Assembly (NCBI GenBank): GCA_003344405.1
Contig: NOWV01000120.1
Location: 62,001-126,000 of the forward strand
DNA length: 64,000 nucleotides
Origin: Trichoplax sp. H2
Taxonomy: Eukaryota
Reading direction: 5' to 3'
The notes beneath the pieces are model-generated. The model had not been told where the DNA came from, searched no databases, and was given only the letters and a program-made list of their open reading frames with translations. Below are positions 405 through 59,920 of this stretch, in pieces. Made by a program: the position numbers and the translations under genes. Positions within the stretch are counted from its first letter, which is position 1; the number at the start of each line of letters is the position of its first letter.

Positions 405-635
405 GTATGTTACAGTGTACTGTATACTGTACTGTACAGTGTACAGTGCATAGTACAGTACAGTAACAGCTGTACAGAGTGCTGGACAGTATCGAGCGAT
501 TCAGTGGATTGTACAGTACAGGACAAGTGTCCATTATACAATATACAGTACAGTATTACACAACCACCATGATCGTACTACAGTATAATGTGCAGTACAG
601 TTAGCACATCGACTGTTCACTATATACAACATACA
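405..635. repeat. CAGTA/TACTG low-complexity island 1, upstream of the minus-strand gene at 170
   Basis: Dense degenerate tacag/gtac/tactg units, e.g. 'tacagtgtactgtatactgtactgtacagtgtacag'. Confidence 0.85.
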
Positions 636-643
636 GCTATTTT

Positions 644-1595
644 ACAAACCTTAAATGTTATTTAGCATACATACCTAGACCTTTACATTGATCTGATATC
701 TTATCACCATTCTTACTTCGTATTACTATTACTATTGCATTGATAGTCTGTACAGACATTGAATTGAAAAATCAAATTCACAATTTACAGCTAATCATCA
801 TCGAAGTAAAGCTACGAAACAATGGATTGAGACGTCTTTGACTTCCATACGCGTATAATCGTGAAGTATAGTTTCACATGCGGAATAAGTAATACGCCTC
901 AATACGAGCTCGAGGACTCGTTGTACATAGTTGCACAAAGATCTTGGAGAGTGTCCGATACTGCATCCCAAATTTAACTATTTCTCAGTCTCGGAAATTT
1001 CAAACTGTTACTCTAAACGATTAGCAACTATAGTATTATTAAAGTACATTAATTCAATAACACCANNNNNNNNNNNNNNNNNNNNACAAACCTTAAATGT
1101 TATTTAGCATACATACCTAGACCTTTACATTGATCTGATATCTTATCACCATTCTTACTTCGTATTACTATTACTATTGCATTGATAGTCTGTACAGACA
1201 TTGAATTGAAAAATCAAATTCACAATTTACAGCTAATCATCAGCGAAGTAAAGCTACGAAACAATGGATTGAGACGTCTTTGACTTCCATACGCGTATAA
1301 TCGTGAAGTATAGTTTCACATGCGGAATAAGTAATATGAAGAGAAAGCTAATTCTGCCACGCAATACTTCATTTCTATTTTCTTCACACTATTGTAATTG
1401 TTGTGTTGTCGCGTACTTGCTGTACGCCTCAATACGAGCTCGAGGACTCGTTGTACATAGTTGCACAAAGATCTCGGAGAGTGTCCGATACTGCATCCCA
1501 AATTTAACTATTTCTCAGTCTCCGAAATTTCAAACTGTTACTCTAAACGATTAGCAACTACAGTATTATTAAAGTACATTAATTCAATAACACCA
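644..1595 (+). repeat. Near-identical direct duplication (644-1065 and 1086-1595) across a 20-N gap; probable uncollapsed haplotypes
   Basis: The copies match apart from about 4 substitutions and an 88-bp segment (1335-1422) present only in copy 2. Both copies abut the gap at 1066-1085. Confidence 0.9.
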
Positions 1596-2469
1596 TCTAC
1601 TGGTATCGGATTGACCATCAATCGTATAATCACGTACAGTACAGTACGTTACTAATGCAGATAAGCAATCCTGTATACTAGGTACAGCAGAATGCAGGAG
1701 ATAGAGTATAAATATTATGAAACATGAAAACCCGATACGAGCTAATTCAAATTTGATAATTAGTTTCCTGAACTATTTCTCACAAACAGTATTATCAGGA
1801 TAAATCATAAAAGTGCAGAAGTATAATTTAGATTTATTTAATTTAATTTGTGATAATATTTTTCCATTTATAAAATGCAGTTGTCAAAGTTTGCGTAAAT
1901 TCTTTTAGATTATCATGCTCATGCATAACTTGTCTAAATTGCATTAACATACATAGCAATCCCATCATGGTCTACACAAGGTTCGTACATATAAATTAGA
2001 TAAAACGCTTCATACATATGCAATATCACAGCACATACAATTCGATAAATCCTGGAATTACCACAATCACAATGAAATCGAGTATTTATTTGTGTTACCA
2101 ACCTACTGTGATATATCTAGCAAAGCCTGAAGTGTCACACGGTTAAATTAAAATAATAATCTTCATCAAGTATTTCCATTAGAAGTAGCAAAAAGCACAT
2201 ATAACATTATACTAATATTATGATCAAATGATTTCTATCCATCCATGAACATTTCTGTCAATCTACATTATGTGCACACAATCCGTCAAATCCCATCACG
2301 AATTTATTGATCAAATGGTGACCCGTGCATACGTACAATCCATCAAATCTTCATCGACGAAATTTAAAGCTATCATTAATTTGATGCTCTAAGTGTAAAT
2401 CAACAAAAGAATTGCTAGAGTACGCTGCATAATAGAATAAGAATTAGCTTATATTTACTTTCAAATATT

Positions 2470-5400
2470 TTATTTATAATCGTATTTGTCGTATTTGCTG
2501 AAGGTATTGACGCGATTTCGTGGTAATTCCCCAAAAATATCGGTACTTTTCTTACTGATGCTATTTGCGATAGCCTTCATACTTTCGGCTATATTATCAT
2601 GCCTTTCTGGTAACGGCTAAAAATAGATAAATTGGTCACTATCGCCTTCATATTTCAAAAGTGACTGCTATGTTACTAAGAATATATTTAGCTATAACTG
2701 CATTATTACGTACTTCAATGTCAATAGGCTTCTTCTGACTGCGTTCTAATAAACCTATATTTATTGGCAAGGAATTTGCACAAGGCCGACTTATAGAACG
2801 CAATCGAGTAGCTGGTAGCCCAACAACTACATTTTCAACTTCTTCGGACAAACTATTATCTGTAAAAAAAGAACATAGAATGAGTAAGCTACTGATTCAA
2901 TTTCATAATATTTCTCTGAAATCACAACTCTCTTTTATAGTGACTCCACAAACCGTCGCTATGGCTATTACTGTTGCTAGATAAATCATCCGATTCGCAT
3001 TGCATAGGCTTTTCGATGGTAGTATCATCTTCATCCATTGCAAACAATGCATCAGCTACAGTTGTTATAAATTCATGAAATTAGTTTACAGTTAAATTTA
3101 TTTATCAATATCTTAAAAATGAACATACGATCTTCGTCCTGGTAACCACTAGTATTCATTTCAGGTACATTATTTTGACGACCGGCAGATCTCTGTAGAA
3201 ATTTATAGTAAAATAAGAAATTCTAACGTACCCGTCACTAAAATCTCAAAAGTTCTTACCCTCGACGTCTGAGATAAATAGGAACTAGTTTTGTCATCAT
3301 TCCAAGGCTTTTTCTGCTTCCATTGAGATCGATTGGCTATATTATCTATATTATGATGATTATGACTATTGTCTTCGGTTATATCATCAGCTACTGGTAA
3401 CTCATCGCCATCATCTTCTAACATTGCATCTGAAATATTGCTTTCAATATCTTCACCAGTGGCATTAATGACAACTCTATGAAAATGAAAAATTACGGTA
3501 AAGAACTTGTTTAGTAAGTGTTTGTACAGAAAACTCTTAATAAATTTTCAGGAAATAGCTATGACTAAATTCTCACTTTCGCAGAGAGGCTTCATGGCTT
3601 TTTATCAGCACCTTCAATGCAGTGTATTCTGCTTTCTGTTTTGCAATATAAGAGCTGCAATGTACAGTTAATAAGTCAATAAGATAGCATCGCTTGTAAA
3701 TTATCAATTACTTGAGCAAATCTATAGATATCAACGTTTAAATACTTGCATGCTTGCAAGTTACGAAATACTATCATTGTAATAACTTTACACTACAAGT
3801 CTATCGATAGCATTTGCAACTACATACTTGATTCTTTCCTTCATAGCATGTTCCTCGACTTCCAAGTACTTTTGTGAAATTTTATCAATAGAATTGAATA
3901 CAGATCGAATTTTTTCTCCAAAAAGGACAGCTCTTGAATCTATAATGTGTGAATAATACTTGGTAAGATTATCTATACGAATACTATTTTACTACTACCG
4001 ACGCGATTCTTGAATATTATACGATATTGTAGCTATATCAATAAATCTGATCCAAAATTTACATAATGCATATACTCGTATATACTGTGCATAAAATTTT
4101 CTGCTTAAATTATCTAGCATACGAATTGATTTAAATCGGAACAAGTATGCTGTAACATACTGTAGATATCTTAAAAGTTTCTCGTACGTAAAATTTTACT
4201 CGCATAAGTAATCAGAAGCTAAAGCAAATTAAGCAAGCATTATTCGAAATAACTACTATGGCAGATTCTTTACTATTGTAATTACAGTCCTCTATATAGT
4301 TTCATTATTAGTCCTTATCCATAATAAATCTGAACAGTTGAAACGTCATAACAAAAGAGTAAGAATATGCGATTTAATGCGTATCCAGTAAATAATAGAA
4401 TTATAAATTTAATCTTTACATCATTAATCGAGAATTTGCAGAACTCTACCCACTGAATCCTATTTTAATAGTTTCTGGGTCATGTGCAAATATATTTTAT
4501 TTTAAGTAGGTGCTCAATACCTATTTCTACTGTAGACCTTACACAAAATACGAATACAACGTACTGGTAAAAAGTTTAACTATTTCAGGTATTAATATAG
4601 TAAATGACAACTGTAATGTATGATGCAGATAGTTAGCGAGCTATATGTATAGCGATATAAGTTATAAGATGAATGTAATCCTATCGTAACATTTTAGTTA
4701 GTTTAAAGACCTTGTGTTATACGACTCGGAAAGGACTTACGGGTATACGAGAGATTTATTACAAGAAAAATAATAATTTCACATAGAATCGTTAAATCTA
4801 TATACTCCAAACTTACCGTTTGGTTCTGTTCCGTTTCTAAGGCCAATTTTAATACGAAACGCCGGACAAAATCTCATCTTATCCGACTTTGTGGCAGCGA
4901 CCTCATCGAAAGGCTAGTATAAATAAAAAACAATATTTCGGATCATAAGTAGAGTAAAGGCAAATGAAAAAGTGTAAATGAGGAAAAAGTTTCGTACGGG
5001 TACAATCCTAAACATAATAGTGCAGTATTACTCGTTTCGTGTTAATTTTTAATTTGTACAACACCCAAAGAAGTATTCACTTTATTTATCTAGTAAAAGT
5101 GACCCAACTTTTAATTTGAGAGATAGCAGTGTACTTTAATTTAGGTAATTCCAAACATTTAATATACATTTACACTCCAACCAGATAGCATTACTTTTCA
5201 ATTGAATAAAAAAGCTCACAATTCGCCGCAGAGATCAACACAGTCTTGTACTATATTGGTTGCGCTAAACAATCTCGTAGTTGATAGAGGTTTACATTTT
5301 ACCTATTCTATTAGCTACAAATTATCATCAAATAATATCATACCTGTAATTCTCGAGTGGCCAGTACCATATCTAAGCCAATGCGAGAGTGAATTGCATG

Positions 5401-7309
5401 TGTATCTGTATTGCAATTGACGCAACTACATATGATCCATTCCTTAACGGCTCTTTGCCGAACTAGAAATTTATGTTCCTGTAAAGCCATTTGAAAATAA
5501 CATCGGTGATCAAGATTGAAAATATCTTTTATCTAGGAGTTCCGTATTATTAAGTAAACTCATTATTGCAGTACTTTTATCCTTTAAGAAGACAATGTAA
5601 GACAATTTCCGAACCATATTACTGTACAGTACAGTAAGGCACTCAGTGTTATATCTATATAGATCTGATACGTATCGTCTGTAAAGTTCATAGAAAATGA
5701 TCAACGGAAGCAAACATTGGGAGTAAGCGTAGATGCACCGCCGTACTGTACTTTACGTAGGTGGTCCACAACAACAAAATATTTTTCTTGCAGTAGTTGC
5801 GGATGCACATTTAAGTAAACACAATCTCTCATTCTATATCACCAGTTCGCAGTTACACCTAGTCATTTACAGTTCGCTGATACAAAATCTACCGTACACG
5901 AAGAATACAGCATGAATGACGAGAGTATACAAAATGTTGCTACAACTAACGATTAAGGCAGAAAACTTACGAAAGAGTACTGTATACATAGTACTCGTAG
6001 TTCATAAGATATCGTAATTTAACCCCTCTGCGGAGTCTAGCTCTAAGGCCTTCTGATCGAACTGTACGCTCGAAGTTCGGTTATCTAATTGATGTACTAT
6101 AATGTCCTGATACAACTACGCATAACCTTTATCGCAACAGGAGTAATAATACCAACGTCGTCGTCTACTAGTAGCGATTTTATAGTTTGTAAAATCTTAA
6201 TCTTCAAATACTGTGATGGAATAACTGCACTGCACAGACTACACAGATAATCATAATGTCTCTGGCCATACGACCATGTACATTGTACAGTACTGTACTT
6301 CTTTTATACGTAATAATGCATCCATCATTCACGATCGCATAGGAAGGATGTTTATTAGCTGGCATGCCGCTACCTCTACCCGATGCAGCTTATTCTGGAT
6401 GCAACAACTTGTATTGAAATTGTAGCAATAATAATGTCTGACTGATAAGATCCAATCTCGATGTATTATAGAAACGTTAAAACAATACGTACTAAGTTGT
6501 ACATTTTTAAAAGTGCAATCGAACGAGAAGTCAAGAATAGAATCTTTGCATCAGTGGGCATACAGTATAAGAAATAGTCAAGGCCCGCATACGATAAGAC
6601 TTACGATTGACCTATATACATTTACTTCAACAATTCCAAAATATTCTGTGAATGGCAGTACTTTAAATCCGTGGGATATCAATCTATTTGGTCAAGTGTC
6701 CAACAGCGTAGCAATGAAAAGTTATCTATCATAGCATAATATTTATTTATCATTCGCTACGTCTGCCGGTTTACATTAAAGCAAATGCAGTACTGTACAG
6801 TACAATTATTGTCAGCTTTGAATGCTAATACAACGTCGATTCCACCTCTGGGAAAGAAGATAACAGACGGAAGAAAATTCATGCGAGTTTGGGTTCTAGG
6901 TGTTAAATCGTCATTTCTCAATCGCAGTACGAACCTCTTTTTATCACCTGTATTGAGTAAAAGCAAGTACACAGTACGGACATATAGTATAGTCATCCGA
7001 TAGGAGAAAGTAGGAATATGGAAATTGGTCTAAGCTTGAAATCCATGCAAGAGTATTTGCAGTAACATGTTGGACTGACACTATGACACATTTTCAAAGC
7101 AAAGTTGGACTAGCCAAAGGCAAATCCATCTGCAATGTACATTTACTTTTGCATACCTGATTGATACCTCCCAAGTTTAATTTTATTTGATCCAGTGGTT
7201 GATTGAAGAACTTATCTTTATGCTTTAACTTCTCCATTGTATCAATAGCTTGCTTTTCTCGCCAATGGATAGTAATATTCAAACACTGACAAGTTAGCTT
7301 TTTGGCCAT
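2470..7309 (-). CDS. AKT1S1: PRAS40 / proline-rich AKT1 substrate 1-like mTORC1 inhibitor, 10 exons, ~416 aa
   Basis: Exons 7157-7309, 5344-5478, 4817-4913, 3828-3939, 3577-3654, 3260-3476, 3129-3192, 2954-3055, 2714-2859, 2470-2616; all GT-AG and phase-consistent (1251 nt). Motifs: TOS-like FAMDE (cf. human FVMDE), ANSLPINI (cf. AKSLPVSV), and C-terminal IAESMKAIA...IFGELPRNRVNT with an Akt RxRxxT site (cf. FGDLPRPRLNT). Confidence 0.85.
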
Positions 7310-7723
7310 CTTGAATTGCTACTTTCCTACCGTCTACAATGAATTAATCAAAATACGTGTCTACAACGAGGTCATTAACTCGCTTTCCCCCACTTTACGT
7401 CCAACGACGTCAATGGCAAAATTGCTTAAGCCCAGCGGCGGAAATGTCAAGGGTAGTACCAACAAGAGTACGGGCACTTTGAAAGCAACCAATAAAGGTA
7501 AAATAGACTGCTGAAATGGGTAATCAACTCGTTGAACTACTATCAGCTAGCGATTGGAAGGCAATTGAAGGTATTCGAGGGGCTAACTTTGCCAACCAAT
7601 GGACAAAATGATCTCAGTGAAATTTGCAGTGAAAAAAAAAAATTTTCAATTGCAGTTACGTCGTCGACTGCCCGCTAAGTCCCATATATAAGAACAAGTC
7701 TTAAAAATTTGGGGGGGGGTTTT

Positions 7724-7895
7724 ATACTGACTGTATTCCCCCTATACTGTACTGTAGTATAGTACTGGTCCGTCTACACTGTACGGTACTGTACTGTACT
7801 GTAGAACACCGGTGTCTTTGTGTACAGTACTGTACAGTACTGCTGACGGTGGGGATTTCCTTGCAGTTTACAGTACAGTACTGTAGGAACTTACT
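7724..7895. repeat. CAGTA/TACTG island 2, upstream of the PRAS40-like gene
   Basis: 'gtactgtactgtactgtag', 'gtacagtactgtacagtactg' about 400-600 bp 5' of the ATG at 7309. Confidence 0.85.
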
Positions 7896-9726
7896 GTAAC
7901 ATTGCGCCCGCGCAGTGTCACAGCGCATCCATCACAAAGCATGTGACTCTCATACGACCATCACTCACCTCTAAACGATGTCGTTGAGAGTCGGTCAGCT
8001 TAGTGAAATCATACTGAATTTGCGCAGTGGAGCTGTACAATACTGCCTCGATCGATGACCAGCAGGCTTAATGAAGTAGATTGCCAAGCGATGCAATCCA
8101 TCAATCAATACATTGGCTCATTAAAATCAATTTATTAGTCATGATTATTTTGAGTCTTGCTAAAGAAGAAAAAAACAATGTTATACGCGTACAGTATTAT
8201 CATTGTCATGTCTACTGGGTCCCAAGCAAGGACTACTGCAAACGGCAATCCTTTTTTTTCTAGTAGTCCATGACCGCTAGACTTGAAATGGACTGGAGAG
8301 AATGCGATACCCAGATACCCAGTAGTCTAGAAATTCCAAAATGAAATCCTTTCGTCATGACAAGAACTTATCGGAGATGCAGTATGCCAATAACTTTGAA
8401 TAACCTGCCAAACAAGATGACATTATATTGGCCATCTTTCAATGATGTAGTTTATATTCAAGATGTTACAGTTGATGTTTAGTGCATGCCCTGGACACGA
8501 ATCATATATTATAATCCGTCAATGTTATTGATAAATATTATTGTTATTAATTGAGCGTCTACTCCTTCAAGATTTATCTTGGCATGGAAGGTTATCCTTA
8601 TTGGCATAGTAGTTCAACTTGTAAGGACAGACACCCAACAGAGCCAGTAAGAAAGATAAAATTGAGCAAAGGCAACATACATCTAATTTCAGAATCTTTG
8701 AATAATTCAATTTTTATTGCTTGAACAATCTTGGTAATAAAGATATTGTACGAATACGTATATCAATAAATGTCAATGATGAAGAAATTAATAAATAATT
8801 GATTATTTTCATCAATACACGTACATCTGTTAGATAACTCGACTGAAAGTCAAGAAAGTAGACTAGTACTGTACATTACTCTTGGGTACAATATTACAAT
8901 CCTTTTAACAATAATAATTACAATAACGATGAAACACTTGAGTCAAAGCCCACATATTATTATTTATTTTTTAATCGTACGATTTGGCATGTTGACCAAG
9001 AAGTGAAATGGCTTAATACCGCTATTTGGCAACTAGTTGACTTATTCTATATAATAAACTAGGCACAAATAAGCAATCGTAACAAGATTTGATCATTTAC
9101 TCAATTTTTTTCATAAAAAAAAAAAGACAAATATAAGACCGCGGCTGAACGGGAATATTAATGCAAGCAATAAAGATAACATGAAACAGTGCTAGAAGCC
9201 TATAATAGAAATAAAATTCTAAGAGATTGAAGTATACAAAGGTAGGTAAAGATGATTACAACCTTTCAAGGAATTTGTTGATCAACTACAGTACTAATAC
9301 TTTCAAAAATGATAAAACGCATCGAAGCGGTGAACGATGCACAATTGAATAGTCATTTACACTTAGTCACTGTAGTGGCGTAAAAATTCTGTATCCTACA
9401 TCGTTCTTACAGATATTTTAATTTAATCTATATATAAATTGATGTTGTATAGAGTAAAAAACAAAAACAAAGATTCATCAATACATTATCTACTGTACGC
9501 ATACAAACGTATATATGCTGCACTTATGTGTACATGTAACCACATACAAATAATCTTAGGTATTTACTATTAAAGTAATAATTTAATTTAAATTATTTTT
9601 TTACATCAAAATTAAAATGGTGCCTTCGTCTCGATGATTTAGCGATCAATGTAATAATAACATACGTATATTTGGCAATAGAACATTAGAGTAGAAATAT
9701 AATTACGGTAATATTATTATTTATTA

Positions 9727-12700: not shown

Positions 12701-13371
12701 ATAATGTAATCGATCGAACTTACTTTAGCAGACCGTGATGAGTATGGGTCATCGACGAGCTTCCATAACTTAGGCTTTAATTTCTGCCATCGCGTTTGAC
12801 GTCTATTTTGTATACGATCAAAGAAGGTTTCTTCAACATCTCTTTCTTCCAAATCATCGGTTTCGTAAAATTCAATGTTTCTTAGTGTATCTTTAGCGTC
12901 GCGATGCTCACGATAACTTAACCAACAACATGCCTCAATTTGATTTTCGTCGATACCCCAATAATTTAATTCTTCTTCAAAGAGCGGACCGCATACATTA
13001 GACGGTTTATGTAATTTACCAGTACGATAATAATTTAAAATTGCAGCAAATACATGAGGATGACGATCAAAAAAATATTCATTTTTCTCTGGATCATAAT
13101 CTGTAGTATTCTTTGAATTAGTATCACATAGCCAAGACAATCGTGTATCAGGCAATTTCTTTAATGTTGCCCAATAAGTTTCATGGCGTGTACCGCCACA
13201 ATTGATAGTAATGCGCTCTTTAGCCGAAGCCGATACCGACGCCTTAAATGATGGCCTTCCAATGCTACCATCATCACCCGAATCAACTTCTCTGACAGAA
13301 GTTGAGGCCTCATCGCCGTGATAAGTTAGTTTACTATCACGATGCGAGAAGCCTTTCGAGCCGCGCTTCAT
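9727..13371 (-). CDS. KCNC: Shaw/Kv3-family voltage-gated potassium channel, 2 coding exons, ~663 aa
   Basis: Exons 12724-13371 and 9727-11070, phase 0. T1 domain ([24 protein letters not shown], Zn site HKPSNVC...ACC), S4 [17 protein letters not shown], pore TTVGYGD, gate PVPVIVNNF. Confidence 0.95.
11527..11720 (+). repeat. Degenerate two-copy direct repeat (~115-bp period) in the Kv3 intron
   Basis: 'tgatgcggtacttgttgcaagttttaattacttc...ttttactc' at 11527 vs 'tgatgccgtactttgtaatgagtttaagtacctc...ttttactc' at 11641. Confidence 0.55.
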
Positions 13372-21750: not shown

Positions 21751-21844
21751 GATTGATTATACTACTCCCAATTTTCAATGACGATATTATCATTTGGAGA
21801 AAATGGCGAAGACCAAGATTGCTACGAGTAGACGTCACACCATG

Positions 21845-22700
21845 TACTACATGTCGTGTATACTGCGCAATCGTACGGTACTGCAGCCAGTCCAGTTGAC
21901 TGTCCTGTCCGTACTGTACAGTGTACACTGTACAGTATGACTATCACTCCGTACAATGTACTGTACCAACTTGTACCAACTGTACTGTACAATGTACTGT
22001 ACCAACTCTACCGTACTATACACTGTACACTGTACAGCATTCAAAGTTTTTCTACCGTATACTGTAGTACTGTACTGTACTGTACTGTACGGTACAGTAC
22101 TGTACTGTATAAATACGGAATAAATACTGTACAGTGTACAGTATGGACACTATACATGTACTGTACAGTACTGTACAGGACAGTACAGTAGAACGCTTTT
22201 AGAATCAAAGGAGTGGATCATTTTCTACGAGAATCTGGAATTTGTAGTTGGCATATTTAAAGTTTTTACACACGACCGCATAGGAAGGTTCACAACCATT
22301 GGTCTTTCTTGAGCATTTTACTAATAGTTTGAACTATTCAAACATATCCAAGAAAACGGATGACATTGTACAGTACTGTCACCACTGGAAGTGTGAAGCA
22401 GTCTACAGTACTCAGTACTGTACTGTACTGTACGTACAGTATCTTGGAATTTGTAGTGTACAGTACAGGGTGTAGAAATTCGATCTAGATTAAAAAAAAA
22501 CAGATAATATGATCAAAACTTTAAGCAGATATACAGTTTTATGGGTTTTATTCGAAAATAAATCATAAAACTATTCACTGATTTATCTAGAAAGAAATTC
22601 TACACCTTGTACTGTACAGTATTTCAAGTTTGGACACAAGACCGTACAGTACGGTACTACAGTACGACACGCCGTACTGTACAGTACTGTATGACTGGAA
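21845..22700. repeat. CAGTA/TACTG island 3, between the divergent PHRF1-like and orphan genes
   Basis: Long runs such as '(tactg)n' at 22068-22090 and 22416-22432. Confidence 0.9.
22466..22609. mobile_element. MITE-like hairpin element, 144 bp, with CAGGGTG-type terminus and TA on both sides (Tc1/mariner-like)
   Basis: Left 'ta|cagggtgtagaaattcgatctagat'; right 'atctagaaagaaattctacaccttg|ta' (reverse complement caaggtgtagaatttctttctagat; 4 mismatches in 25). Inner inverted pair agttttatg/cataaaact. No ORF. Confidence 0.6.
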
Positions 22701-29399: not shown

Positions 29400-30540
29400 A
29401 GTTCCAGTACAGTCTACAGTCCATACACTGTACACCGATTACAGTACGCTGTACATGTACTCTAACTTTTCAGCTGCAGCTTTATGATACAGTCAGTAAA
29501 TTTGGACGTGTAAGTTGTTCATCTGTTATAAGCCTCTCCTTATTATTAAGCTACGTTGATAGTACGGTATGAACTTTTTCCGGGAGTTCGAAGTCTTCGC
29601 TAGACCCCCGCCAGTTGATGGAAAAGTTCTTAATGTACTTAGCTGAAATGGCTGCCAGTTTCAGCGAAGAACTTTTCATAAACTGACACAGTCATGGACT
29701 GCTCAATCTACAGTACAGTACTTTCAGTAGCCCATGACACCGTACAGTGTACAGTACAGTTGTGCAACGTGGACCAAGTGGACAATTCAAGTCAATGAAG
29801 TCAAAGGCCAACTTCAAGACTCTGGATGTACAGTCGCTGTCGTACAGTCCTGTAGAATGGAGTATTCTGAATACTGTACATCAAATTCATGAAACAGGCC
29901 TGTATAATAGGATAACACTATCCCTCTATTTGATTGTCAACTTTAATTTTACTTGAAACAAAATTGAGTCATTGCACGCCTAAGTTGCGCTACCGCAATC
30001 GACAGCTTTTTTTTTTGGACGACGTCCAAATTGCTTTCGTCGTCGTTTGTTTAGCGAGTTCTACAGTAGAGTACAGCGCAGTGGAAGCGCACAGTACAGT
30101 ACAGTGTACAGTACGCTAACGGAATACTGTACACTGTAATATGGGAGTACAGCACAGTACATACTGTACTGTACTGTACTGTATACAGTACAGTATGTTG
30201 TACCGTAAGCAAGTACTGTAGAGTTCCAGTGCACAGTACACTGTACTGTACACTGCACTGTAGATGGTGTAGAAGTCGCTGATGAAAGCAATGTGGACGT
30301 CGTCAAAAGCGCTGCCAATTACGGTAGCGCAACTTAGAAGCACAACGACTCAATTTGATTTTAATTCAATTTCAAATTGGTATTCAAATAGAAGAATACA
30401 GTAGTGTTATCCTATTATGATAATAATACAGGCCTATTTATTGAATGGATTTGACATACTGTACTGTACTGTACTGTACTGTACTGTATTCAAAATACTG
30501 CATTCTACAGTACTTACTGCAAAGGACACTACGGTACACT
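29400..30540. repeat. CAGTA/TACTG island 4, in the MED29-CEPT1 bidirectional promoter
   Basis: Tracts at about 29400-29460, 29705-29760, 30060-30265 and 30455-30540. Confidence 0.85.
29850..30510. mobile_element. 661-bp foldback / long inverted-repeat element (arms ~29850-30064 and ~30268-30510) with a CAGTA-rich spacer
   Basis: Colinear inverted blocks: ctgtagaatg.agtatt.tgaatac / gtattcaaaatactgcattctacag; aggcctgtat...ataataggataacacta / tagtgttatcctattat...atacaggcct; aaattgagtc / gactcaattt; ctaagttgcgctaccg / cggtagcgcaacttag; gacgacgtcca.attgctttc / gaaagcaatgtggacgtcgtc. Confidence 0.75.
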
Positions 30541-30826
30541 ACCATGACATGCGCAATTCACGGTGTCCATCAAGTAATATCCTTTTGTCTAAGGTCAAGC
30601 TGTGGTAGGTCCATGATGGGCCCCATCTAGGTCACACCATCATCTGTCATGCGCACTGCTCATCGGGTGCATGAGCAGAGGCAAACGTGAGTGTTTGGAT
30701 CGCCAACATTTGAAAGCGGACTGGAAAAGAAATTGAGCAAAGTGAAGAGTGTACACAATTAATTTGACTATTTCCTTGAGAGACAAGCTCCAATCTGACA
30801 GTCATTATTCTCATTAGCTAGTAGAG

Positions 30827-33772
30827 ATGATTGGCTACCTAACAAAACAACAATTAGATCGTCTTAAGCAGCATCAATATTCGGTTATTGGTCAGTCTGC
30901 AACGGAAAGCTTTCTGCAACCGTACTGGTGTTGGTTAGTCAAGCAAGTGCCACTATGGCTAGCTCCAAATCTTATTACCTCCCTTGGGTTAGCAGTCAAT
31001 GTTGTAACAACAGTCATTTTAGCTTGTTACTGTCCACTGATGACCGAAGCGGTGAGTAAGATTAACTCCAATCTTTCATACCATAAATCAATCATAACCC
31101 AATTGCTCAATTGATTTGTCTACCCTTCCAAAGTCTTGATCAATCGGTACTCTGTCCACGTTAAACTACCGTATAGACTCTAGTCAGACTGCAAAGGCCA
31201 TAAGGTAGCCAGTATCGTTTCAAACGGTCTTGACAAATGGCGATCTTGTAGCAATCTTATAGCATATAGGATAGATCGATCCTAGGTAGTCCCTTATTTT
31301 GTAAGTCCATCTCTTTGACTACATTGTCGTCCTTATTGCAGGTTTCCGTAATATTAGATCTCACAGCTAGTTTACTTTCTGAATTCACTCCTAGTATTTT
31401 CTAGAGACAGTACAGTATATACAGATGTAGTAGTATGAGTACAGCGCCATCCTTGGACATAGTTGCATAATGTTGTCAAGATTCGAATCGATGTTTTCTA
31501 TTATGATAGCATCATTCGAGATAGACATCTTGGTCAATGTTAGACCTGAAGCTAATACTTACCATGGCTGTCATTGATCTCTTTTAAAGGCGCCATGGTG
31601 GGTATATTTCCTGTGTGCCGTAGGCCTCTTTGCCTATCAATCGTTAGATGCAATCGATGGAAAACAAGCTAGAAGAACCGGCAATCAGAGCCCTTTAGGT
31701 GAATTATTCGATCATGGATGCGATTCTATTTCTATGATATTTGTCTGCCTTGGCTTGAGCATCTGCATGCAGTTTGGATATAATTATGCCCCGCTATTAA
31801 TCTTCACAACTTCCGCTCCATTTCTATTTTATTGCTCTCATTGGCAAGCTTACGTCACTGGCACTTTACGATTTCATCAGTAAGTACAGTAGAAGGAAAT
31901 CTTCAGGCATACTCTGATACTATCGAGAACGATGATAATGAATATGCTACAAATTAAGATGTACACTCTCTTTTAAAGTACTCTAATGTAAATCAATGTC
32001 TTTGACTATAGCTATTATTATACAATTTTGCCACCCTTACAATTTGCTAGTTTAGTAAAATAAACTATAGGTACGAGCGTAGATGAAGTATTCCATTCTT
32101 TGAATAACGTAATTGATAGGCAATGACATTCGATGGATTCAACTGAAGTTATCGCTAATGAAAATAGAGTTGCTCAACCTTATTAATTGACCGACTTGTG
32201 CTGTACATCATCAACCTATCTTTTAGACTGATTAAATATAAATCAATTTCTTTCTGATTGCCATAGATAAAAACGCTAAAATAACATGAAATCAGTGTAG
32301 AAGCGATTCTATTTGCTAGTTACAAAGAAGTTAATGTCCATAATAACAGAGTATATGTCCTAAAGATGAAAATTGATTTTTTCTTTTGTTTTGCTTTCCT
32401 TATCGATGATGATCAATTATGTTCATATGGCATATAGTACTGGACATACTCCAATTCTGTGATAGAATGTTTATTATTAATGATTACCATTTCTAAGTAC
32501 AGCTCATTTTTGCCGATAATGCTAAAGTTACTCTATAAAGTTCATCGGCGAAATGGGTCTACATTGAATTTGATTTCCACAACTGGTTCAATGAACATAA
32601 AACATGCATTTCGCATTTTACTGTAGATTTGATGTGACTGAAGCTCAATTGATTGTCATTACGATGTTCATACTAACATCGATTTACGGCCCGCAAATTT
32701 GGTCATTTCAGGTTAGAAAACTGTCCATAACTAAAAAGTTTTATTTACTTTACGGTCATGGACGTAAGCTTACAAGATTATTATCAGTATAAAATAATCA
32801 CATATATGTTATTGCTCTCATTATTTAATTTGATTCTTGATCCATTCTACGCGTATAAATACTATTTAGACGGACTGACTGAGTCCAAATATTTTTATGA
32901 CACCCTTCGTGTCTGTATGACACTCAATACAAAAGTAATATTAAACGTGGAAACGCTGTCCTATCTTAGCTACTAGCACTAATTGCATTCTTTTATCAAT
33001 AACTTTCAGATCTGGAATACTGGCCTTAATATTAAGGAAGCCATAGTTATTTCCTCTATAACAGGGGGATTAATAACAATTGGTCTACATTTAAGAGCCG
33101 TTCTAGGAGGAGGTCCAGGAAAAAATGGAACAACTATTGCTGTAAGTGTTTGTCTTAAGTGAATTATAATTCTAGGAAACAATTTTAATGATTAGGTCCA
33201 CTTCGTTATATTCTTAATTAATAGGGTAACAGCGTTATATCACCAGCAATTCCAATTGGATTTATGATGGTTGTATTTTCTTATATATGTGCAAAATCTG
33301 ATATATTACAAACGCATCCGACCTTGCTTGTCCTGGGCGTATCGATTGCCTATGCGAAGTTAACAATGCGACTTGTGGTCAGCATAGCTTACATAGTTGC
33401 TGCGACAATTGAGTATACGCTTCTTATGACATTTTCCTTTTGTATTTTTATTTAAAGGTAGCTCATATGTCAAAAAGTGCTATGGGATTTGCAGATAGTG
33501 CTATGATATCTCCTATTTTATTGGCTCTAAATATTTACCTTGGCAACATAGTTAACCCTTACATGTTACTATTATTTTGTTCGGTAAGTGAAGCTGTACC
33601 AAGTAAAAATTATAAATTATCCTTTACCATTAGTTTATTTGGTTCGTTATTTTCCATGTAGGTACTCTCTTGGTATGATGTTCTCCATTACTGCTGGGTA
33701 GTTGTATTACAGATAGCCAGGCATTTAAGAATTAACGTCTTTACAATCACGCCAAAGTTATCCAGTAATTAA
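30827..33772 (+). CDS. CEPT1: Choline/ethanolamine phosphotransferase (CEPT1/CHPT1 family), 7 exons, ~373 aa
   Basis: Exons 30827-31051, 31590-31879, 32627-32711, 33010-33141, 33225-33377, 33458-33583, 33662-33772 (1122 nt). Motifs [13 protein letters not shown]-alcohol phosphotransferase [55 protein letters not shown]. Confidence 0.93.
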
Positions 33773-51699: not shown

Positions 51700-53465
51700 T
51701 CTCAAAACGACTGTACAAATCTACAGTGTATGTACTGTACTGGAGGATCCAAACCAATTTCAGAGTGGTGAGAAAATGTTCCACCTCCAACTTCTCCTAA
51801 CTTTTATTACTGTATACTGTAGTACAGAATCAGTGAGGTTGACGTTTTTGCTAGGCCTAGGGTGTAGACTATCAGTGATTTTTTTGCCATCAAAATTGAT
51901 TCGAAAGTTTAAAATTAGTCATTTTGACGCTAATTTGGTAGTGTATCCGGATCAACGAAATTATTCTAAATATTGTACTACTGTACACTACAGCAATAGC
52001 ACAGTACAGTACAGTAACAAGCTCTGTACTGTACTGTACAGTAGTTTGCGTTTGTCATCCGATGCCATCACCTCCTCATTTACAGTACAGTACCCCAGAA
52101 GCTGTGGCTACAGTACTTACAGTAATTTATTAATATTGATTAATTATACAGTACAGCATAATAATAATTAATTAATTAATTAAAAGGGGGAGAAAAGTGC
52201 TGTTGACGTACCGTCTGTACGAGGCTGAGTTGGCGTTCTAATTTGGAGATATTTTTAGTAATCCTTCAAGGCAGTCAATGCGGTTATTTGTTCTGGCCGA
52301 AAATAACCTTTTCATCATCAATTATCTGGCCATAAAGTCATTATTATCAGCTTTTCCATGGTGAAGGTCTCACAGATAATCTCTACGAATGTTATTGTAC
52401 CCGAATTACTTTACATTGACTACTCAATTGCTGTAATATTACTGTAAAATGTAACATTGTTTATTATCATACAGATTCGATTTACCATTTATAATAGTAA
52501 ATAATATAAAAAATCAATAAATTCTAAATTCTAAACATATAGTATACAGTACAGTAATATATTGATGAAGCTTTCTAGTAGAGCTGGGGCAATAATTTCG
52601 TCTTGTAAGAAAACAAGAAGCGTGTGCTCATTGGCCTGATCCCTACTCAAACAAACGGTAGCTAGAAAATTTGTGGCGATCAGACCAATGGGCAAACGTT
52701 TCCTATTTTCTTCTGACGATGCCGCAAAAATTGGGTTTGATAAGAAAGTAAGTTTTCTCATAGCTCGCTGTTGTCTTTCGTCTGCACCTACAGTATAATC
52801 ACCTTAAAACTGTTCTCAGTAGTACTTTAGAGAGCTTCAATCTGCTTCATCTTTCATAAGACGTACATGTACTGTATTCGACATTCTCTCAATCAGTACT
52901 ACAGTATACTGTGCCAGTTCGACTCCGAGTCGACTTTGAATCGGACTTTTAAAATACTGCACACTTGTGCACAGTACAGTACAGTACAACATACAAGATC
53001 TGCTAAAGTTTTGACTCGATGTCGCAGATTCCTGCTGAAATCAAATAATTAGGGACATCTAAACATCTCAGTACCCTGTACTTTACATTCCTAACGTGGA
53101 CTTCTAGTGTAAGTTCTGCTTGAAAACAGTTACATAGGATCACAGACGCTAAGAAAACAGACAGAAGATCCATACTAAGTACTGTACAGTGTACTGTAGT
53201 GTTATTACTGCACAATATGTACAGTACATTACTTACAGTACAGTACAATCCTGTGTTGTACAATGTACAGTACTCTAAACTGTACTGTACTGTACTGTAC
53301 AGTACTGTACATACTGTATGTAATCATTTTTCATATTAACAGCCTCGTTTAGTAAAGAAAAGTCTGTCCATCCGAGGTCAGGATCAATCCAGGTCTTCTC
53401 CCAGTCCATTGGTACCGTACAGTACACTCGTACAGTACCGTACAGCATGGTTAAGATGGTACTGT
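51700..53465. repeat. CAGTA/TACTG island 5 (two clusters, ~51700-52160 and ~52860-53465) between the divergent DUSP and SPATA17 genes
   Basis: For example 'ctgtactgtactgtactgtacagtactgtac' at 53280-53310. Confidence 0.8.
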
Positions 53466-53486
53466 ATGGTAAATAAAGTGCTAAAT

Positions 53487-53500
53487 GTTACTATAGCAAC
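53487..53500. promoter_or_regulatory. RFX X-box upstream of SPATA17
   Basis: GTTACTATAGCAAC fully matches the X-box consensus GTYNCYATRGNAAC, about 340 bp 5' of the ATG of a ciliary gene. Confidence 0.65.
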
Positions 53501-56625: not shown

Positions 56626-57621
56626 AGCTTGCTACCAGTCATTGGTCTGCAATATTGACCTCAACTTGACGCTTTGGCATCTCTGGAGAAGAAAAATGAC
56701 GAATATTGATGACTCTATAACTCTACGGCCTACTGTATTTAATCCTGTAATTTATGATTGGTACTGTATATATAGGGATGTGTATACTGTTACGTGAAAG
56801 GCTTGACTAATTTCACTTTGATGCAGTAAAGACGCTTTCTGTTCAGAAACTTTTATGAAAATAATTATAACTATGTAAATGTATTATTGCTGGTACCTGT
56901 ACGCGTATGCTTAAGATTCTAATTATACAGCATCCGCGATGTTGCAACCGTCTATTACGTTACTAATATCGATAAACAATGACAAATAAAATGCGTTGTG
57001 TAATAAAAAGCTCTATTCGTGTAAATCGCACTTGCTAATATCCTATCTTAGTACGTCATCAAGCATGCAATTCTTCGAACTACTGATGCTAAAAGTATTA
57101 CCATAAAATACACAGAGTGTAGTAGATTCTTGCCAATAGATTGTGTAAATTCTTTGATTGATATGAAATAGAATCAAGTTATCAGTTCGTCATTTCACTT
57201 CAATTTGAAGCACACCATCAGGATTCATTTGATACTATCATAATATTGGTGATGAACGTTTAACTGCATCAACTTACAGCATCTGCATATTGTATCATTT
57301 ATTCGTTAGAGAAAATCACAGAAAGATTCTACAATTAAGGTACAAAGGCAGTAAAATTATGGGCACTTCAAGCTTGTATAATTGTTAACAAATTAAGCAC
57401 ACCCGGCAAATGCATGGTGATCTGGAATAACGTACAATAGTATGATAGCGGAGAATGGCTGGTTTCGTTCTCCGACAATTTTTTAATCAGCGTACAGAGT
57501 CATACTATGATATTGCCATCACTATTACTGACATTGTTTAGCAAACAGTTGTAAAACGTTACGAAATAGGAATATTGAGATTACTGTACATATAACAGTG
57601 AAGCAGTCAAATAGATGATAT

Positions 57622-58978
57622 TTATTCATTTTCCGCTTTTAGAGCACGTTCCTTCGCCTTTTGACCAACATCTAGTCCAACGACTAGAGGAATACCAAGG
57701 ATGCATACGCTAAAGAAAGCGAAGACTCCAACTATACCACCTAAACCCTGAAAAGAAGAATTTTTATTGAACAGTCAATAAATATCAAGATGTGGAACTA
57801 TCACTAACCGCCACTAAACAAATGAGCTAAAGGTAGTAGTCATGATTTTAAAACAAAATCCGTCGACAAATGTACGCGCACACGGCGATAAAGGATCTAC
57901 TCGCATTCAATAGCTCGCTATTATTATATAATTACTAACTGCTATACTCGTTTAAGACATATACACTAATGAGCAATTATTATTTAATTATTTACTTGAG
58001 TTAAGACTAAATTGAGGAATTGCTTTGTAGTACTGTCCATTGAAAGCAGAATACCATAAAAGCAACAACCTTGAACAGTTACCTACTATACCATTGAATC
58101 AATTCGTGCAGTATAGTACTATCGTGACTTAATGTACAGCGAGATGAGAAAACTCTATTTGTCTTCTAATTAAAATAGTGTGTAGTGGTTAGAAATATAG
58201 AATAAGCGTAATTTCCGTATTTCTACTTTCCCCTATCATGCACGTCGATTATATTAATCATCAGCTGATGGGATAAAGTGTAATAATGGTTCATGGTTAA
58301 CTATAAACAAGAGACATTCTTACAGCCCTATCAGACACTATGCCGCCAATTTCACTATAATTAGATAAAAAGTAATATCATGACTTTTTCCTAGACTAAA
58401 TAAGTTAACTGGATCAACTATAATCTATTTACAGAACTAATCAACATTATTATTTACGCCCTTTATTCCGTTCTATGCTATCGTATCTGAAATTTCATTT
58501 AGCCACTGCTTTCACGCGACAATGCGGTATCGTATAATAAGTGCAATAGTCATCTATAAGCAATACGGCTGGCCATGCAAAGACGTGCAATGTATTTTCT
58601 ATGGTTGTACAGAATGAAGACGACTTGATGTGGAAAGACAACCGAGAGAAAAGGACTCGCTCATGTTTCTCCGTAGGACTAGTTACTGTATTCAAAGTTT
58701 TGACTTTAAATTGTCTGGAAGCAAGTATGATTCTGATGATAAGCTCCGTCCAACTTTTTTGACGGTTTGCAACGTTTATCAAGACAACAGCCAGCAAGGG
58801 TTGATGGAAATCGCTTTGTACTCACAAGATCTCTTTTAGCACCGGCGCCTTCCGAGCTGCTATAACGTACTAAAGAATTTCTTTTTGTTAGGATAGCTTG
58901 TTTAGTTTGTCCAGATAAAAGACCCTGGCTAAATCGGCGAGAAGCCAATGCACGAAACGCAGAAAAACCAGATGCCAT
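57622..58978 (-). CDS. Small mitochondrial single-pass membrane protein, 92 aa, 2 exons; COX8-like (tentative)
   Basis: Exons 58826-58978 and 57622-57747, phase 0, with donor GTGAGT and acceptor TTTTCAG. Arg/Ser-rich, acid-free presequence MASGFSAFRALASRRFSQ..., then one TM segment GLGGIVGVFAFFSVCILGIPLVVGL and a short charged tail. Confidence 0.75.
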
Positions 58979-59049
58979 TTTTTTCAACCTTGAAAACGAA
59001 GTATCTGATGCTACGCATGCGTCGTCGATTCCAGGAGTGCCGTACGTGA

Positions 59050-59920
59050 GCTACTGTAGTAGTGAGTCGCGTTTGTACAGTACAATGTACAGTACAGTAC
59101 AGTTTGTCCCAGTTCACTACTGTGTGTACTGTACTGTACACTGTACTGAGTGGACAGTACAGTATGAACGAAACCAGATAATTTACAGCATTCAATTAAT
59201 TTTACCCTGTACTGTACTGTAGACTGGAAGATTGAATAGGGTAAACTATTCAATCCACCCTTGTCATATCAAAACAGATACTGTACTTTACTGCATTGGA
59301 TCCATTTTGCAGTGTATAGAATTGAACGCTGCTAAAGTATTCAATTCATCCTGGTAATATCAAATCTACAATGATATTGTCTCCATCCTACCGAGTGTAC
59401 ACTACAGTGTACACATTAGTGACAGTAGTGACAGTACCAATACCAGGTTCTAGGGCGTGAGTGTACAGTACAGTGTACAGTACAGAATGTACACTCAGTA
59501 CTGTACACTGTACGGCGTCGTTGATTTCGCTTTCGAGGAAGCACAGTACTAAAACTAACCTGCAAATACAGTCGTTTATACGGACTTCGAACACAATCGA
59601 CATCACTATCATGCAGCCGCGTGCTGATACAGTAGTAACATTACTGTTGATTTCTCTGAAACGAAAAGGATCGCGCTCAGCGTCGTTTATTTCGCTTTCG
59701 AGAAAGCACAGTACTAAAACTAACGTGCAAATGCAGTCGTTTATACGGACATCCAGCATAATGGACACCACTTTCATGCAGGCGCGTGTTGATACAGTAG
59801 TACCGTGTACAGTGTACAGTACAATATCACGCTACAGTACTGTATTGTACTGTAGATACTGTAGAAATGTGCTATACTGTACAGTACACTAGTGTACAGT
59901 GTACAGTACTTACTGTACAA
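59050..59920. repeat. CAGTA/TACTG island 6, upstream of the small mitochondrial gene
   Basis: Tracts at about 59050-59225, 59395-59512 and 59795-59920. Confidence 0.85.
59515..59802 (+). repeat. Two-copy direct repeat of ~123 bp (59515-59638, 59680-59802; period 165) inside island 6
   Basis: 'gcgtcgtt.atttcgctttcgag.aagcacagtactaaaactaac.tgcaaat.cagtcgtttatacggac...tcatgcag.cgcgtg.tgatacagtagta' occurs twice. Confidence 0.9.

What the first reader, a model, noticed from the sequence alone, without database searches (positions are those of the whole stretch)
405..59920. CAGTA/TACTG islands mark gene starts: a candidate repeat-based promoter code
Seen: six dense islands of degenerate CAGTA/TACTG pentamers and GTAC/TGTACA/AGTACT palindromes (about 405-635, 7724-7895, 21845-22700, 29400-30540, 51700-53465, 59050-59920). 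Each lies directly 5' of a start codon or between head-to-head genes (PHRF1/orphan, MED29/CEPT1, DUSP/SPATA17). Only short scattered copies occur in introns and 3' regions. The two genes with long upstream regions and likely cell-type-restricted roles (Kv3, FoxN2/3) have no island. Inference: the islands may be a lineage-specific promoter class, functionally like CpG islands. They could be multimeric binding sites for one factor, nucleosome or chromatin-hub organisers, or decayed transposon ends co-opted at broadly expressed genes. I recall placozoan promoter hubs being linked to DNA-transposon-derived sequence but cannot verify it here, so novelty needs a literature check.
Basis: partly seen in the sequence, partly recalled or inferred. 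Interest (0 to 1): 0.8.

Follow-up and report, generated by a model that had tools for sequence, protein, structure and literature searches.

The report
Placozoan promoter GTAC-repeat islands, already described
Six dense clusters of short TACTG/CAGTA repeats really do sit at the starts of broadly used genes in this Trichoplax-like genome piece, and they most likely are the promoter-hub motif that a 2025 Nature paper already linked to Mutator transposon ends.

Summary
CAGTA/TACTG occurs 403 times against 149 +/- 11 in shuffles. The sharper core CWGTACWG occurs 105 times against 3.3 +/- 1.9, and 79 of those 105 lie in 6% of the window.

Spliced RNA contigs show that islands 3 and 4 are divergent promoters. 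Seven of 11 gene-start markers have an island within 600 bp upstream. The Kv and Forkhead genes have none. Island 2 has no verified neighbouring start. The DUSP start lies 1.4-1.7 kb from island 5.

The window is Trichoplax adhaerens or a very close relative. Kim et al. 2025 (PMC12221973) already describe placozoan housekeeping ("GP1") promoters that form chromatin-loop hubs. Their anchors carry a motif found in Mutator terminal repeats. The motif's letters appear only in figures I could not read, so identity with these arrays is inferred (about 0.75).

New here is the anatomy: short, strand-switching GTAC-core arrays spaced 5 or 7 bp apart. They also mimic "TIR plus 9-11 bp target duplication" on their own, so the Mutator label may be partly structural.

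Verdict: real, functional-looking, already known.

The parts
385..636 (.). Island 1. GTAC-core pentamer/heptamer cluster, 52% covered by the pentamer family. An ORF-level ATG lies at about 170 on the minus strand, 215 bp away.
7725..7898 (.). Island 2. 58% covered by the pentamer family. No verified neighbouring coding start.
21843..22700 (.). Island 3. Lies between a minus-strand PHD-like gene (RNA contigs reach 21672) and a plus-strand SNORD16 host gene (exon 1 ends at 23104). It contains a 113-nt near-palindrome at 22078-22190.
22454..22621 (.). 168-bp MITE-like inverted-repeat element inside island 3. The arms are 40 nt and 85% complementary. Their outer ends are the GTAC-core motif and their inner parts are unique sequence. 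No clean target-site duplication, and no second copy in the window.
29688..30540 (.). Island 4. Lies between a minus-strand Med29-like gene (exon 1 starts at or above 29137) and the plus-strand CDP-alcohol phosphatidyltransferase gene. It holds the longest pure array, 32 nt at 30457-30488.
30664..31050 (+). First exon of the CEPT1-like gene. RNA contigs start at 30664 and 30709. The ATG is at 30827. The last array ends about 176 bp upstream of the first contig start.
51974..52156 (.). Island 5, left block. It faces the DSPc phosphatase gene on the minus strand.
52789..53466 (.). Island 5, right block. It faces the IQ-motif gene on the plus strand, whose IQ exons begin at 54065.
59052..59919 (.). 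Island 6. An ORF-level ATG lies at about 58978 on the minus strand, 74 bp away. The island encloses two copies of a roughly 110-nt non-array unit (59515-59623 and 59680-59788, 84% alike).
5620..5631 (.). Single palindromic 12-mer of the motif, 130 bp upstream of the PRAS-like gene's ATG at 5490. This is a one-site version of the island.

Best explanation
The islands are homotypic clusters of one short motif. The motif has a GTAC core flanked by W and G (CWGTACWG). It is repeated every 5 or 7 bp and flips strand every two to six units. The clusters occupy the space between or just upstream of the transcription starts of broadly expressed placozoan genes.

They most likely are the sequence that Kim et al. 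2025 found enriched at chromatin-loop anchors of 'GP1' housekeeping promoters and inside Mutator terminal repeats.

Proposed working:
1. A still unidentified placozoan DNA-binding protein reads the GTAC-core site.
2. Dozens of sites per island give multivalent, orientation-free binding.
3. This binding keeps the promoter open and lets neighbouring island promoters stick together in hubs.

What is shown here: the anatomy, the position next to gene starts, and genome-wide repetition. What comes from the paper: open chromatin, H3K4me3, loops, the housekeeping bias and the Mutator link. What is inferred: the binding factor, multivalency as the mechanism, and the identity of the published motif with this one.
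For: - Enrichment and clustering are far beyond shuffles.
- The GTAC core is invariant with a symmetric consensus. Spacing peaks at 5 (77 pairs), 7 (21), 10 (35) and 12 (28), against 1, 3 and 0 pairs at 6, 8 and 11.
- Runs are short and of mixed orientation: 95 runs of 9 nt or more, 45 in one orientation and 50 in the other, the longest 32 nt. This looks like a site cluster rather than a pure microsatellite.
- Islands share nothing else with one another once the pentamers are masked, so the motif itself is the common element.
- Islands 3 and 4 are divergent promoters by spliced RNA contigs. Contig ends lie about 170-180 bp from the nearest array.
- 7 of 11 gene-start markers have an island within 600 bp upstream. 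Random independent placement gives a mean of 1.3 and P = 5e-5; circular shifts give P = 0.004.
- A single site sits 130 bp upstream of the PRAS-like ATG.
- In a DNA-like run, summed contig depth over island bins is 189 to 11,136 against 60-141 elsewhere, and 2,956 contigs were laid. The sequence is therefore repeated very many times in the genome.
- The window is Trichoplax-like.
- The paper reports a loop-anchor motif at 2,978 GP1 promoters, absent at cell-type-specific GP3 genes and conserved across four placozoans.
Against: - The published motif's letters were not readable: 0 hits for GTAC, TACTG and similar strings in the text and in three spreadsheets. The PDFs were not readable at all. 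The identity is therefore not proven.
- No chromatin, loop or expression-breadth data could be laid on this locus.
- Island 2 has no verified gene start.
- The DSPc and PRAS-like starts are 1.4-2.2 kb from the nearest dense island.
- Four of the eleven start markers rest on ORFs or predicted proteins rather than RNA.
- The sample is one 64-kb window. No whole genome was available.
- An exact 24-mer of the array also occurs in at least 107 unrelated metagenome contigs, so the array type is not unique to placozoans.
- No binding protein is known.
Confidence: 0.7

Rival explanations
1. Passive transposon scars. Mutator-like elements or their MITEs insert preferentially into open promoters and leave decayed terminal repeats. 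On this reading the islands mark promoters but do nothing.
For: - The paper itself offers targeted integration as an alternative.
- One 168-bp element with 40-nt inverted arms, whose outer ends carry the motif, lies in island 3.
- The sequence is massively repeated genome-wide.
- Preference of maize Mu elements for gene 5' ends is recalled knowledge, not checked here.
Against: - No transposase family appears among the 260 ORFs scanned with Pfam (111, 149).
- 0 of the 10 'TIR plus 9-11 bp duplication' candidates inside islands have a duplication made of non-repeat sequence. An eleventh candidate spans the two blocks of island 5, and its duplication is also repeat sequence.
- Islands share no inner terminal-repeat sequence once the pentamers are masked.
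- The paper reports the motif at orthologous promoters across four placozoan species, which neutral scars would not easily keep.
Confidence: 0.15
2. Intrinsic DNA-structure element. The strand-switching arrays form cruciforms or slipped structures, or disfavour nucleosomes, and keep promoters open without any sequence-specific protein.
For: - 5 of 6 island pieces fold as single-stranded DNA with z = -3.6 to -6.0, and 0 of 200 shuffles fold as well.
- Two control pieces give z = +0.6 and -0.1.
- A 113-nt near-palindrome lies at 22078-22190.
- TA steps recur every 5 bp.
Against: - One island piece has z = -1.7 only.
- A single 12-mer site at the PRAS-like promoter cannot act through large-scale structure.
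- Specific promoter-promoter looping (paper) is easier to explain with a bridging protein.
Confidence: 0.1
3. Neutral microsatellite growth by slippage, placed near promoters by chance or by transcription-linked instability.
For: - Tandem Repeats Finder reports period-5 and period-7 arrays in the islands.
- The same 24-mer occurs in at least 107 unrelated metagenome contigs.
Against: - Runs are short, with frequent inversions: 37 of 95 runs are only 9 nt and the longest is 32 nt.
- Placement next to gene starts is non-random.
- The paper reports conservation across placozoan species.
Confidence: 0.05

Closest known systems
Placozoan GP1 promoter-hub / loop-anchor motif carried in Mutator terminal repeats (Kim et al. 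2025, Nature, PMC12221973)
   Same: - Same organism group.
- Same location at promoters of housekeeping-type, often neighbouring genes.
- Absent from cell-type-specific genes.
- Highly repeated in the genome.
- Inverted-repeat structures with Mutator-like 9-11 bp flanking repeats are present in the islands.
   Different: Nothing is demonstrably different. The published logo could not be read, so sameness of the letters is inferred. The readable text does not describe the motif as strand-switching pentamer/heptamer arrays with a GTAC core.
Vertebrate CpG islands
   Same: A composition-level mark of broadly active, often bidirectional promoters. The islands are somewhat richer in G+C than their surroundings: 0.40 against 0.34 for the whole window.
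   Different: There is no CpG enrichment. Observed/expected is 0.71 in the islands against about 1.0 elsewhere. The mark is a specific repeated word, not a dinucleotide bias.
Ctenophore loop-anchor GC-rich motif bound by CTEP1/CTEP2 (same paper)
   Same: A lineage-specific motif at loop anchors that is linked to transposable elements.
   Different: - The sequence is different.
- It mostly joins enhancers to promoters.
- Its binding is methylation-sensitive.
- The binding proteins are known there and unknown here.
Mutator-like elements and their MITEs
   Same: Inverted terminal repeats. One 168-bp element has 40-nt arms. Flanking direct repeats of 9-11 bp can be found.
   Different: - No transposase in the window.
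- All flanking repeats are made of the array itself.
- Islands share no inner terminal sequence.
Promoter microsatellites that act as factor-binding arrays, such as (GA)n bound by GAGA factor in Drosophila (recalled, not checked here)
   Same: A short repeated word at promoters that gives many sites for one factor and is linked to open chromatin and promoter tethering.
   Different: The word is different. The repeats switch strand and run at two periods. The factor is unknown.

Membership tests
Placozoan GP1 promoter-hub motif (Kim et al. 2025) | Lies in a placozoan genome | tested here: met
   A window ORF retrieves TRIADDRAFT_63504 of Trichoplax adhaerens. That protein maps back exon by exon at 63-100% identity, and three exons are 100% identical.
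Placozoan GP1 promoter-hub motif (Kim et al. 2025) | Sits at promoters of housekeeping-type genes and is missing at cell-type-specific genes | tested here: met
   7 of 11 start markers have an island within 600 bp upstream. Divergent promoters are shown by RNA contigs. There is none near the Kv or Forkhead genes. Expression breadth itself was not measured.
Placozoan GP1 promoter-hub motif (Kim et al. 2025) | Same letters as the published HOMER motif | not testable with these tools
   The logo exists only in figures. There were 0 text hits and 0 hits in three spreadsheets. The supplementary PDFs are unreadable.
Placozoan GP1 promoter-hub motif (Kim et al. 2025) | Micro-C loop anchor with ATAC and H3K4me3 peaks | not testable with these tools
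   No chromatin tracks are available. The runs laid are contigs only.
Placozoan GP1 promoter-hub motif (Kim et al. 2025) | Overlaps elements that EDTA labels Mutator | tested here: inconclusive
   My own simple scan for 12-nt inverted ends plus 9-11 bp flanking repeats finds 11 candidates. Ten are inside islands and one spans island 5. This imitates the authors' pipeline but is not that pipeline (EDTA v2.1.0).
Mutator-like transposon / MITE | Terminal inverted repeats | tested here: met
   40-nt arms, 85% complementary, at 22454-22493 and 22582-22621. There are also many array-made inverted pairs.
Mutator-like transposon / MITE | 9-11 bp target-site duplication of host sequence | tested here: not met
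   0 of the 10 candidates inside islands have a flanking repeat outside the pentamer family; mean family coverage is 0.92. The 168-bp element has no matching flanks (read directly).
Mutator-like transposon / MITE | Transposase (MULE / Transposase_mut) or multi-copy internal sequence | tested here: not met
   No such Pfam family among 260 window ORFs. No shared non-array sequence between islands. This holds for this window only.
CpG island | CpG observed/expected and G+C clearly above the genome background | tested here: not met
   CpG observed/expected is 0.71 in islands against about 1.0 outside. G+C is 0.40.
Pentanucleotide microsatellite | Long head-to-tail pure array | tested here: not met
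   The longest pure run is 32 nt, or 6.4 units. 37 of 95 runs are 9 nt. Orientation alternates.

The most novel reading that the evidence does not exclude
The 'Mutator' link in the literature may be largely a by-product of structure-based annotation.

Strand-switching GTAC-core arrays generate inverted ends flanked by 9-11 bp direct repeats on their own. The favoured length is 10 bp, which is two pentamers. An annotator that relies on inverted ends and duplication length could therefore label them Mutator. How EDTA classifies is recalled, not checked here.

If so, the islands are not transposon relics. They would be a self-propagating, promoter-specific binding-site microsatellite, a placozoan counterpart of CpG islands read by an unknown GTAC-binding architectural factor.

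In the window:
- All 11 TIR-plus-duplication candidates are array-made.
- Exact duplications peak at 10 bp: 4 candidates, against 1, 1, 2 and 2 at 8, 9, 11 and 12 bp.
- No transposase was found.
- No shared inner terminal sequence was found.

Against this reading, one real-looking 168-bp inverted-repeat element carries the motif at its tips. The authors also report a Mutator family shared across four species.
Probability: 0.3. Interest if true: 0.55.

Novelty: already known. Interest (0 to 1): 0.3.

Why it matters
Placozoan promoter hubs are one of the earliest-branching examples of sequence-encoded three-dimensional genome wiring, and the protein that reads the motif is unknown.

This window gives a concrete, readable anatomy of the element:
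- a GTAC core;
- spacing of 5 or 7 bp;
- constant strand switching;
- from one site to dozens of sites per promoter.

That anatomy is what a pull-down or DAP-seq probe design needs. It also raises a checkable caution about whether the transposon origin is real or an annotation effect. The finding itself does not add a new kind of element.

Tried and rejected
- **Whole-genome test.** No genome is held for this window, so genome-wide enrichment at gene starts could not be computed.
- **Motif letters.** They are not in the paper's text or in its three spreadsheets. The three supplementary PDFs cannot be read.
- **Other literature.** Six further searches found no other paper on a placozoan promoter repeat. 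One search was badly designed and returned primer and microRNA noise.
- **Metagenome scan with an exact 24-mer.**
  - At least 107 contigs hold it.
  - None resembles the window outside the repeat.
  - I generated 333 ORFs of 130 aa or more, of which 165 passed a complexity filter. I sent 71 to Pfam. None of the 71 hit a Mutator transposase.
  - This shows only that such arrays exist elsewhere. It says nothing about placozoans.
- **Gene next to island 2.** The 74-aa ORF at 7094-7318 gave no relative among longer proteins. Shorter proteins were not searched.
- **DSPc gene start.** The search returned two partial relatives at 63-64% identity, not the full Trichoplax model.
- **'Empty site' idea for the 168-bp element.** Alignment of 22190-22455 against 22600-23110 showed only array-driven similarity.
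- **Small RNA genes in the non-array parts of islands 3 and 6.** No tRNA was found and no Rfam family passed gathering score there.
- **FHY3-type Mutator-derived factor as the reader of the motif.** A preprint reports none in Trichoplax (10.1101/2022.12.18.520930, passages).
- **RNA contigs over the arrays.** Their raised depth and loose ends come from many loci, so they cannot show whether these islands are transcribed.

Full report

The window is 64,000 nt with 33.8% G+C and a 20-N gap.

- CAGTA, read on both strands, occurs 403 times. In 100 dinucleotide-preserving shuffles it occurs 148.9 +/- 11.4 times, at most 180.
- I counted bases covered by the ten cyclic forms of TACTG and CAGTA. The densest 200-nt window has 140 covered bases. 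None of 100 second-order Markov sequences exceeds 68.
- The stretches above that ceiling are 385-636, 7725-7898, 21843-22537 (shorter runs continue to about 22700), 29688-30262 (plus a 32-nt array at 30457-30488), 51974-52156, 52789-53466 and 59052-59919.
No other place passes.

**2. Anatomy**

- The invariant element is GTAC: 190 copies in the 3,866 nt of islands (49 per kb) against 296 outside (4.9 per kb).
- The flanks give a symmetric consensus, roughly TAC-W-GTAC-W-GTA.
- The 8-mer CWGTACWG occurs 105 times against 3.27 +/- 1.85 in shuffles. 79 of the 105 are inside the islands.
- Distances between GTAC cores peak at 5 (77 pairs), 7 (21), 10 (35) and 12 (28). At 6, 8 and 11 there are 1, 3 and 0 pairs. 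So a pentamer form and a heptamer form share one core.
- The commonest island 12-mers are direct pentamer repeats (33 copies inside, 6 outside). A heptamer form has 12 inside and 0 outside.
- Pure runs are short. Of 95 runs of 9 nt or more, 37 are just 9 nt and the longest is 32 nt. 45 point one way and 50 the other, alternating within each island with no polarity towards the flanking genes. 68 of the 95 are in islands.
They also create larger palindromes, for example arms of 56 nt with 79% complementarity one base apart at 22078-22190.
- As single-stranded DNA, five of six island pieces fold better than all 200 shuffles (z = -3.6 to -6.0). The sixth has z = -1.7. Two control pieces have z = +0.6 and -0.1.
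- With the pentamers masked, the islands share no other sequence with each other. Only local duplications remain.
- The islands are not CpG islands. CpG observed/expected is 0.71 against about 1.0 in the rest, and G+C is 0.40.

**3. Surroundings**

Pfam on 111 ORFs of 70 aa or more, and on 149 shorter ORFs near the islands, gives these hits:
- a Kv-type channel (Ion_trans, BTB_2; minus strand, 9730-13383);
- a weak PHD hit (19205-19522, minus);
- CDP-alcohol phosphatidyltransferase (31578-31880, plus);
- Forkhead (38593-39306, minus);
- DSPc (48482-49389, minus);
- a weak Med29 hit (27611-27778, minus);
- IQ motifs (54065-54498, plus);
- a near-threshold PRAS hit (2473-2616, minus).

No transposase family appears. 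A 114-aa ORF retrieves TRIADDRAFT_63504 of Trichoplax adhaerens. That protein maps back exon by exon, with its ATG at 5490 on the minus strand. The window is therefore T. adhaerens or a very close relative.

Contigs of one DNA-like run and three RNA runs were laid on 12001-32000. The RNA contigs carry:
- six GT..AG introns of a plus-strand gene between 23104 and 26667;
- three CT..AC introns of a minus-strand gene between 27776 and 29137;
- one intron of the phosphatidyltransferase gene (31050|31589).

Rfam places SNORD16 in an intron of the plus-strand 'orphan' (25347-25448), so that gene is a snoRNA host.

RNA contigs of the PHD-like gene reach 21672 and 21648, about 171-195 bp short of island 3. 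Those of the phosphatidyltransferase gene begin at 30664 and 30709, about 176-221 bp past the last array of island 4, and its ATG is at 30827. Contig ends are only weak hints of true starts. Still, islands 3 and 4 clearly fill the gap between divergently transcribed genes.

The other islands:
- Island 1 lies 215 bp from an ORF-level ATG at about 170.
- Island 6 lies 74 bp from an ORF-level ATG at about 58978.
- Island 5 lies between the DSPc gene and the IQ gene. The DSPc ATG suggested by two partial relatives is at about 50294, 1.4-1.7 kb away. The first IQ exon is about 600 bp away.
- Island 2 has no verified start beside it. The best ORF found no relative.
- The PRAS-like ATG has no island. 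It does have one perfect palindromic 12-mer 130 bp upstream and a second short run nearby.

In all, 7 of 11 start markers have an island within 600 bp upstream. The mean is 1.3 under random independent placement (P = 5e-5). Under circular shifts P = 0.004. Four markers rest on ORFs or predicted proteins only, and head-to-head pairs are not independent.

The Kv gene splices to an upstream exon near 15070. Neither it nor the Forkhead gene has an island anywhere in its upstream region.

**4. Genome-wide repetition**

- In the DNA-like run, summed contig depth is 60-141 in ordinary bins.
- Over island 3 it is 787, 11,136 and 274. Over island 4 it is 189 and 1,129.
- 2,956 contigs were laid, and 1,033 of them fit two places.
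- Loose ends next to the arrays agree poorly with one another (about 0.4), which means many different neighbours.
- The island sequence therefore recurs at a very large number of loci. The exact number cannot be derived from contigs.

**5. Comparison with what is known**

One paper in the searchable library covers this: Kim et al., Nature 2025, PMC12221973. It was found. I read passages of the section on placozoan promoter hubs, the legends of Fig. 3 and Extended Data Fig. 8, and the Methods on motif analysis and repeat annotation. I also searched three spreadsheets.

It reports:
- thousands of promoter-promoter contacts in T. adhaerens and Cladtertia collaboinventa;
- 2,978 T. adhaerens 'GP1' genes with ATAC and H3K4me3 peaks and loops, higher expression and housekeeping functions;
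- GP3 genes that are cell-type specific and lack these marks;
- an enriched motif at loop anchors, present at orthologous promoters in four placozoans;
- frequent Mutator insertions at GP1 promoters whose terminal inverted repeats contain the motif.

The authors offer two readings. Either an architectural protein evolved to read the terminal-repeat motif, or Mutator targets active promoters.

The letters of the motif are not in the text or spreadsheets, and the PDFs that may hold the terminal-repeat consensus cannot be read. I put the chance that the published motif is this GTAC-core array at about 0.75. It is by far the most enriched word at exactly the kind of promoter described, and a de novo search of anchors against genomic background could hardly miss it.

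**6. The transposon link, looked at in the window**

Repeats in the paper were annotated with EDTA v2.1.0. From my own knowledge, not checked here, that tool classes inverted-repeat elements largely by structure, including duplication length.

- A simple scan for 12-nt inverted ends (two mismatches allowed) plus a 9-11 bp flanking direct repeat (one mismatch allowed) finds 11 candidates in the window. Ten are inside islands, one spans the two blocks of island 5, and none is elsewhere.
- Every flanking repeat inside an island is made of the array itself: mean family coverage 0.92, and 0 of 10 below 0.3.
- With exact flanks, the counts are 1, 1, 4, 2 and 2 for lengths 8, 9, 10, 11 and 12, all in islands. 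The numbers are small, but the peak at two pentamers is what self-mimicry predicts.
- Against pure mimicry, island 3 holds a 168-bp element with 40-nt arms. Their tips are the motif and their inner parts are unique sequence. It has no clean duplication and no second copy in the window.

The window therefore neither proves nor disproves a Mutator origin. It does show that the arrays alone can produce a Mutator-like structural signature.

**7. Mechanism**

Most likely (0.7), the islands are multivalent clusters of sites for an unknown placozoan protein that reads the GTAC-core word on either strand. They sit in the nucleosome-free gap of constitutive, often divergent promoters and mediate the promoter-promoter contacts described in the paper.

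- Shown here: anatomy, position and repetition.
- Taken from the paper: chromatin state, loops and the housekeeping bias.
- Inferred: the factor and the role of multivalency.

Rivals are passive transposon scars (0.15), a protein-independent DNA-structure effect (0.1) and neutral microsatellite growth (0.05). A preprint that looked for Mutator-derived FHY3-type factors found none in Trichoplax, so a domesticated transposase is not an obvious reader.

**8. Verdict**

The feature is already known at the level of kind and function.

The added value is a letter-level description and a testable doubt about the Mutator label. No genome-wide, chromatin or cross-species test could be run here.

Noticed in passing
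window 25347-25448 (+): SNORD16 box C/D snoRNA (Rfam 61.9 bits, gathering score 45) lies inside the 25293|25764 intron of the plus-strand 'orphan' gene. That gene is therefore a snoRNA host gene.
   Followed up: partly
window 10234-10347 (-): The Rfam potassium-channel RNA editing signal (RF00485, 86.3 bits, full length) matches inside the Kv channel coding exon. This may reflect coding conservation or a real editing hairpin in a placozoan channel.
   Followed up: no
window 22625-22860 and 22869-23050: A tandem duplication of roughly 240 bp lies directly upstream of the snoRNA host gene's first splice donor (23104). Each copy contains a short array and the promoter-proximal sequence. Exact shared pieces of 17-19 nt are offset by 177-246 bp.
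   Followed up: partly
window 59515-59623 and 59680-59788: Two copies of a non-array unit, 84% alike over 109 nt, are embedded in island 6. There is no Rfam or tRNA match, and its nature is unknown.
   Followed up: partly
window 644-1142, with the N gap near 1080: A 57-nt stretch at 644-700 recurs exactly at 1086-1142, and the ORF translations from 692 and from 1134 are nearly the same. This is a duplication of about 440 bp around a 20-N gap, and may be an assembly artefact.
   Followed up: no
window 43317-43897: A 158-bp tandem repeat with 3.7 copies and 72% matches lies in the gene-poor stretch between the Forkhead and DSPc genes.
   Followed up: no
window 22095 (loose end of run X15): One RNA-library contig joins the array to a CCCTAA-type telomere-like repeat. 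Arrays may therefore also lie next to telomeric repeats somewhere in the genome.
   Followed up: no
L001-L107 (metagenome contigs): An exact 24-mer of the strand-switching array occurs in at least 107 metagenome contigs with 31-57% G+C. These share nothing else with the window. Some carry several kb of the array family, for example L059 with 2,975 of 5,671 nt covered. The organisms are unknown.
   Followed up: partly
window 5600-7900: Isolated strong copies of the motif lie between the PRAS-like ATG and island 2: palindromic 12-mers at 5620 and 6791, and a 10-mer at 6287. This suggests a diffuse extension of the promoter region or an unannotated transcript.
   Followed up: partly
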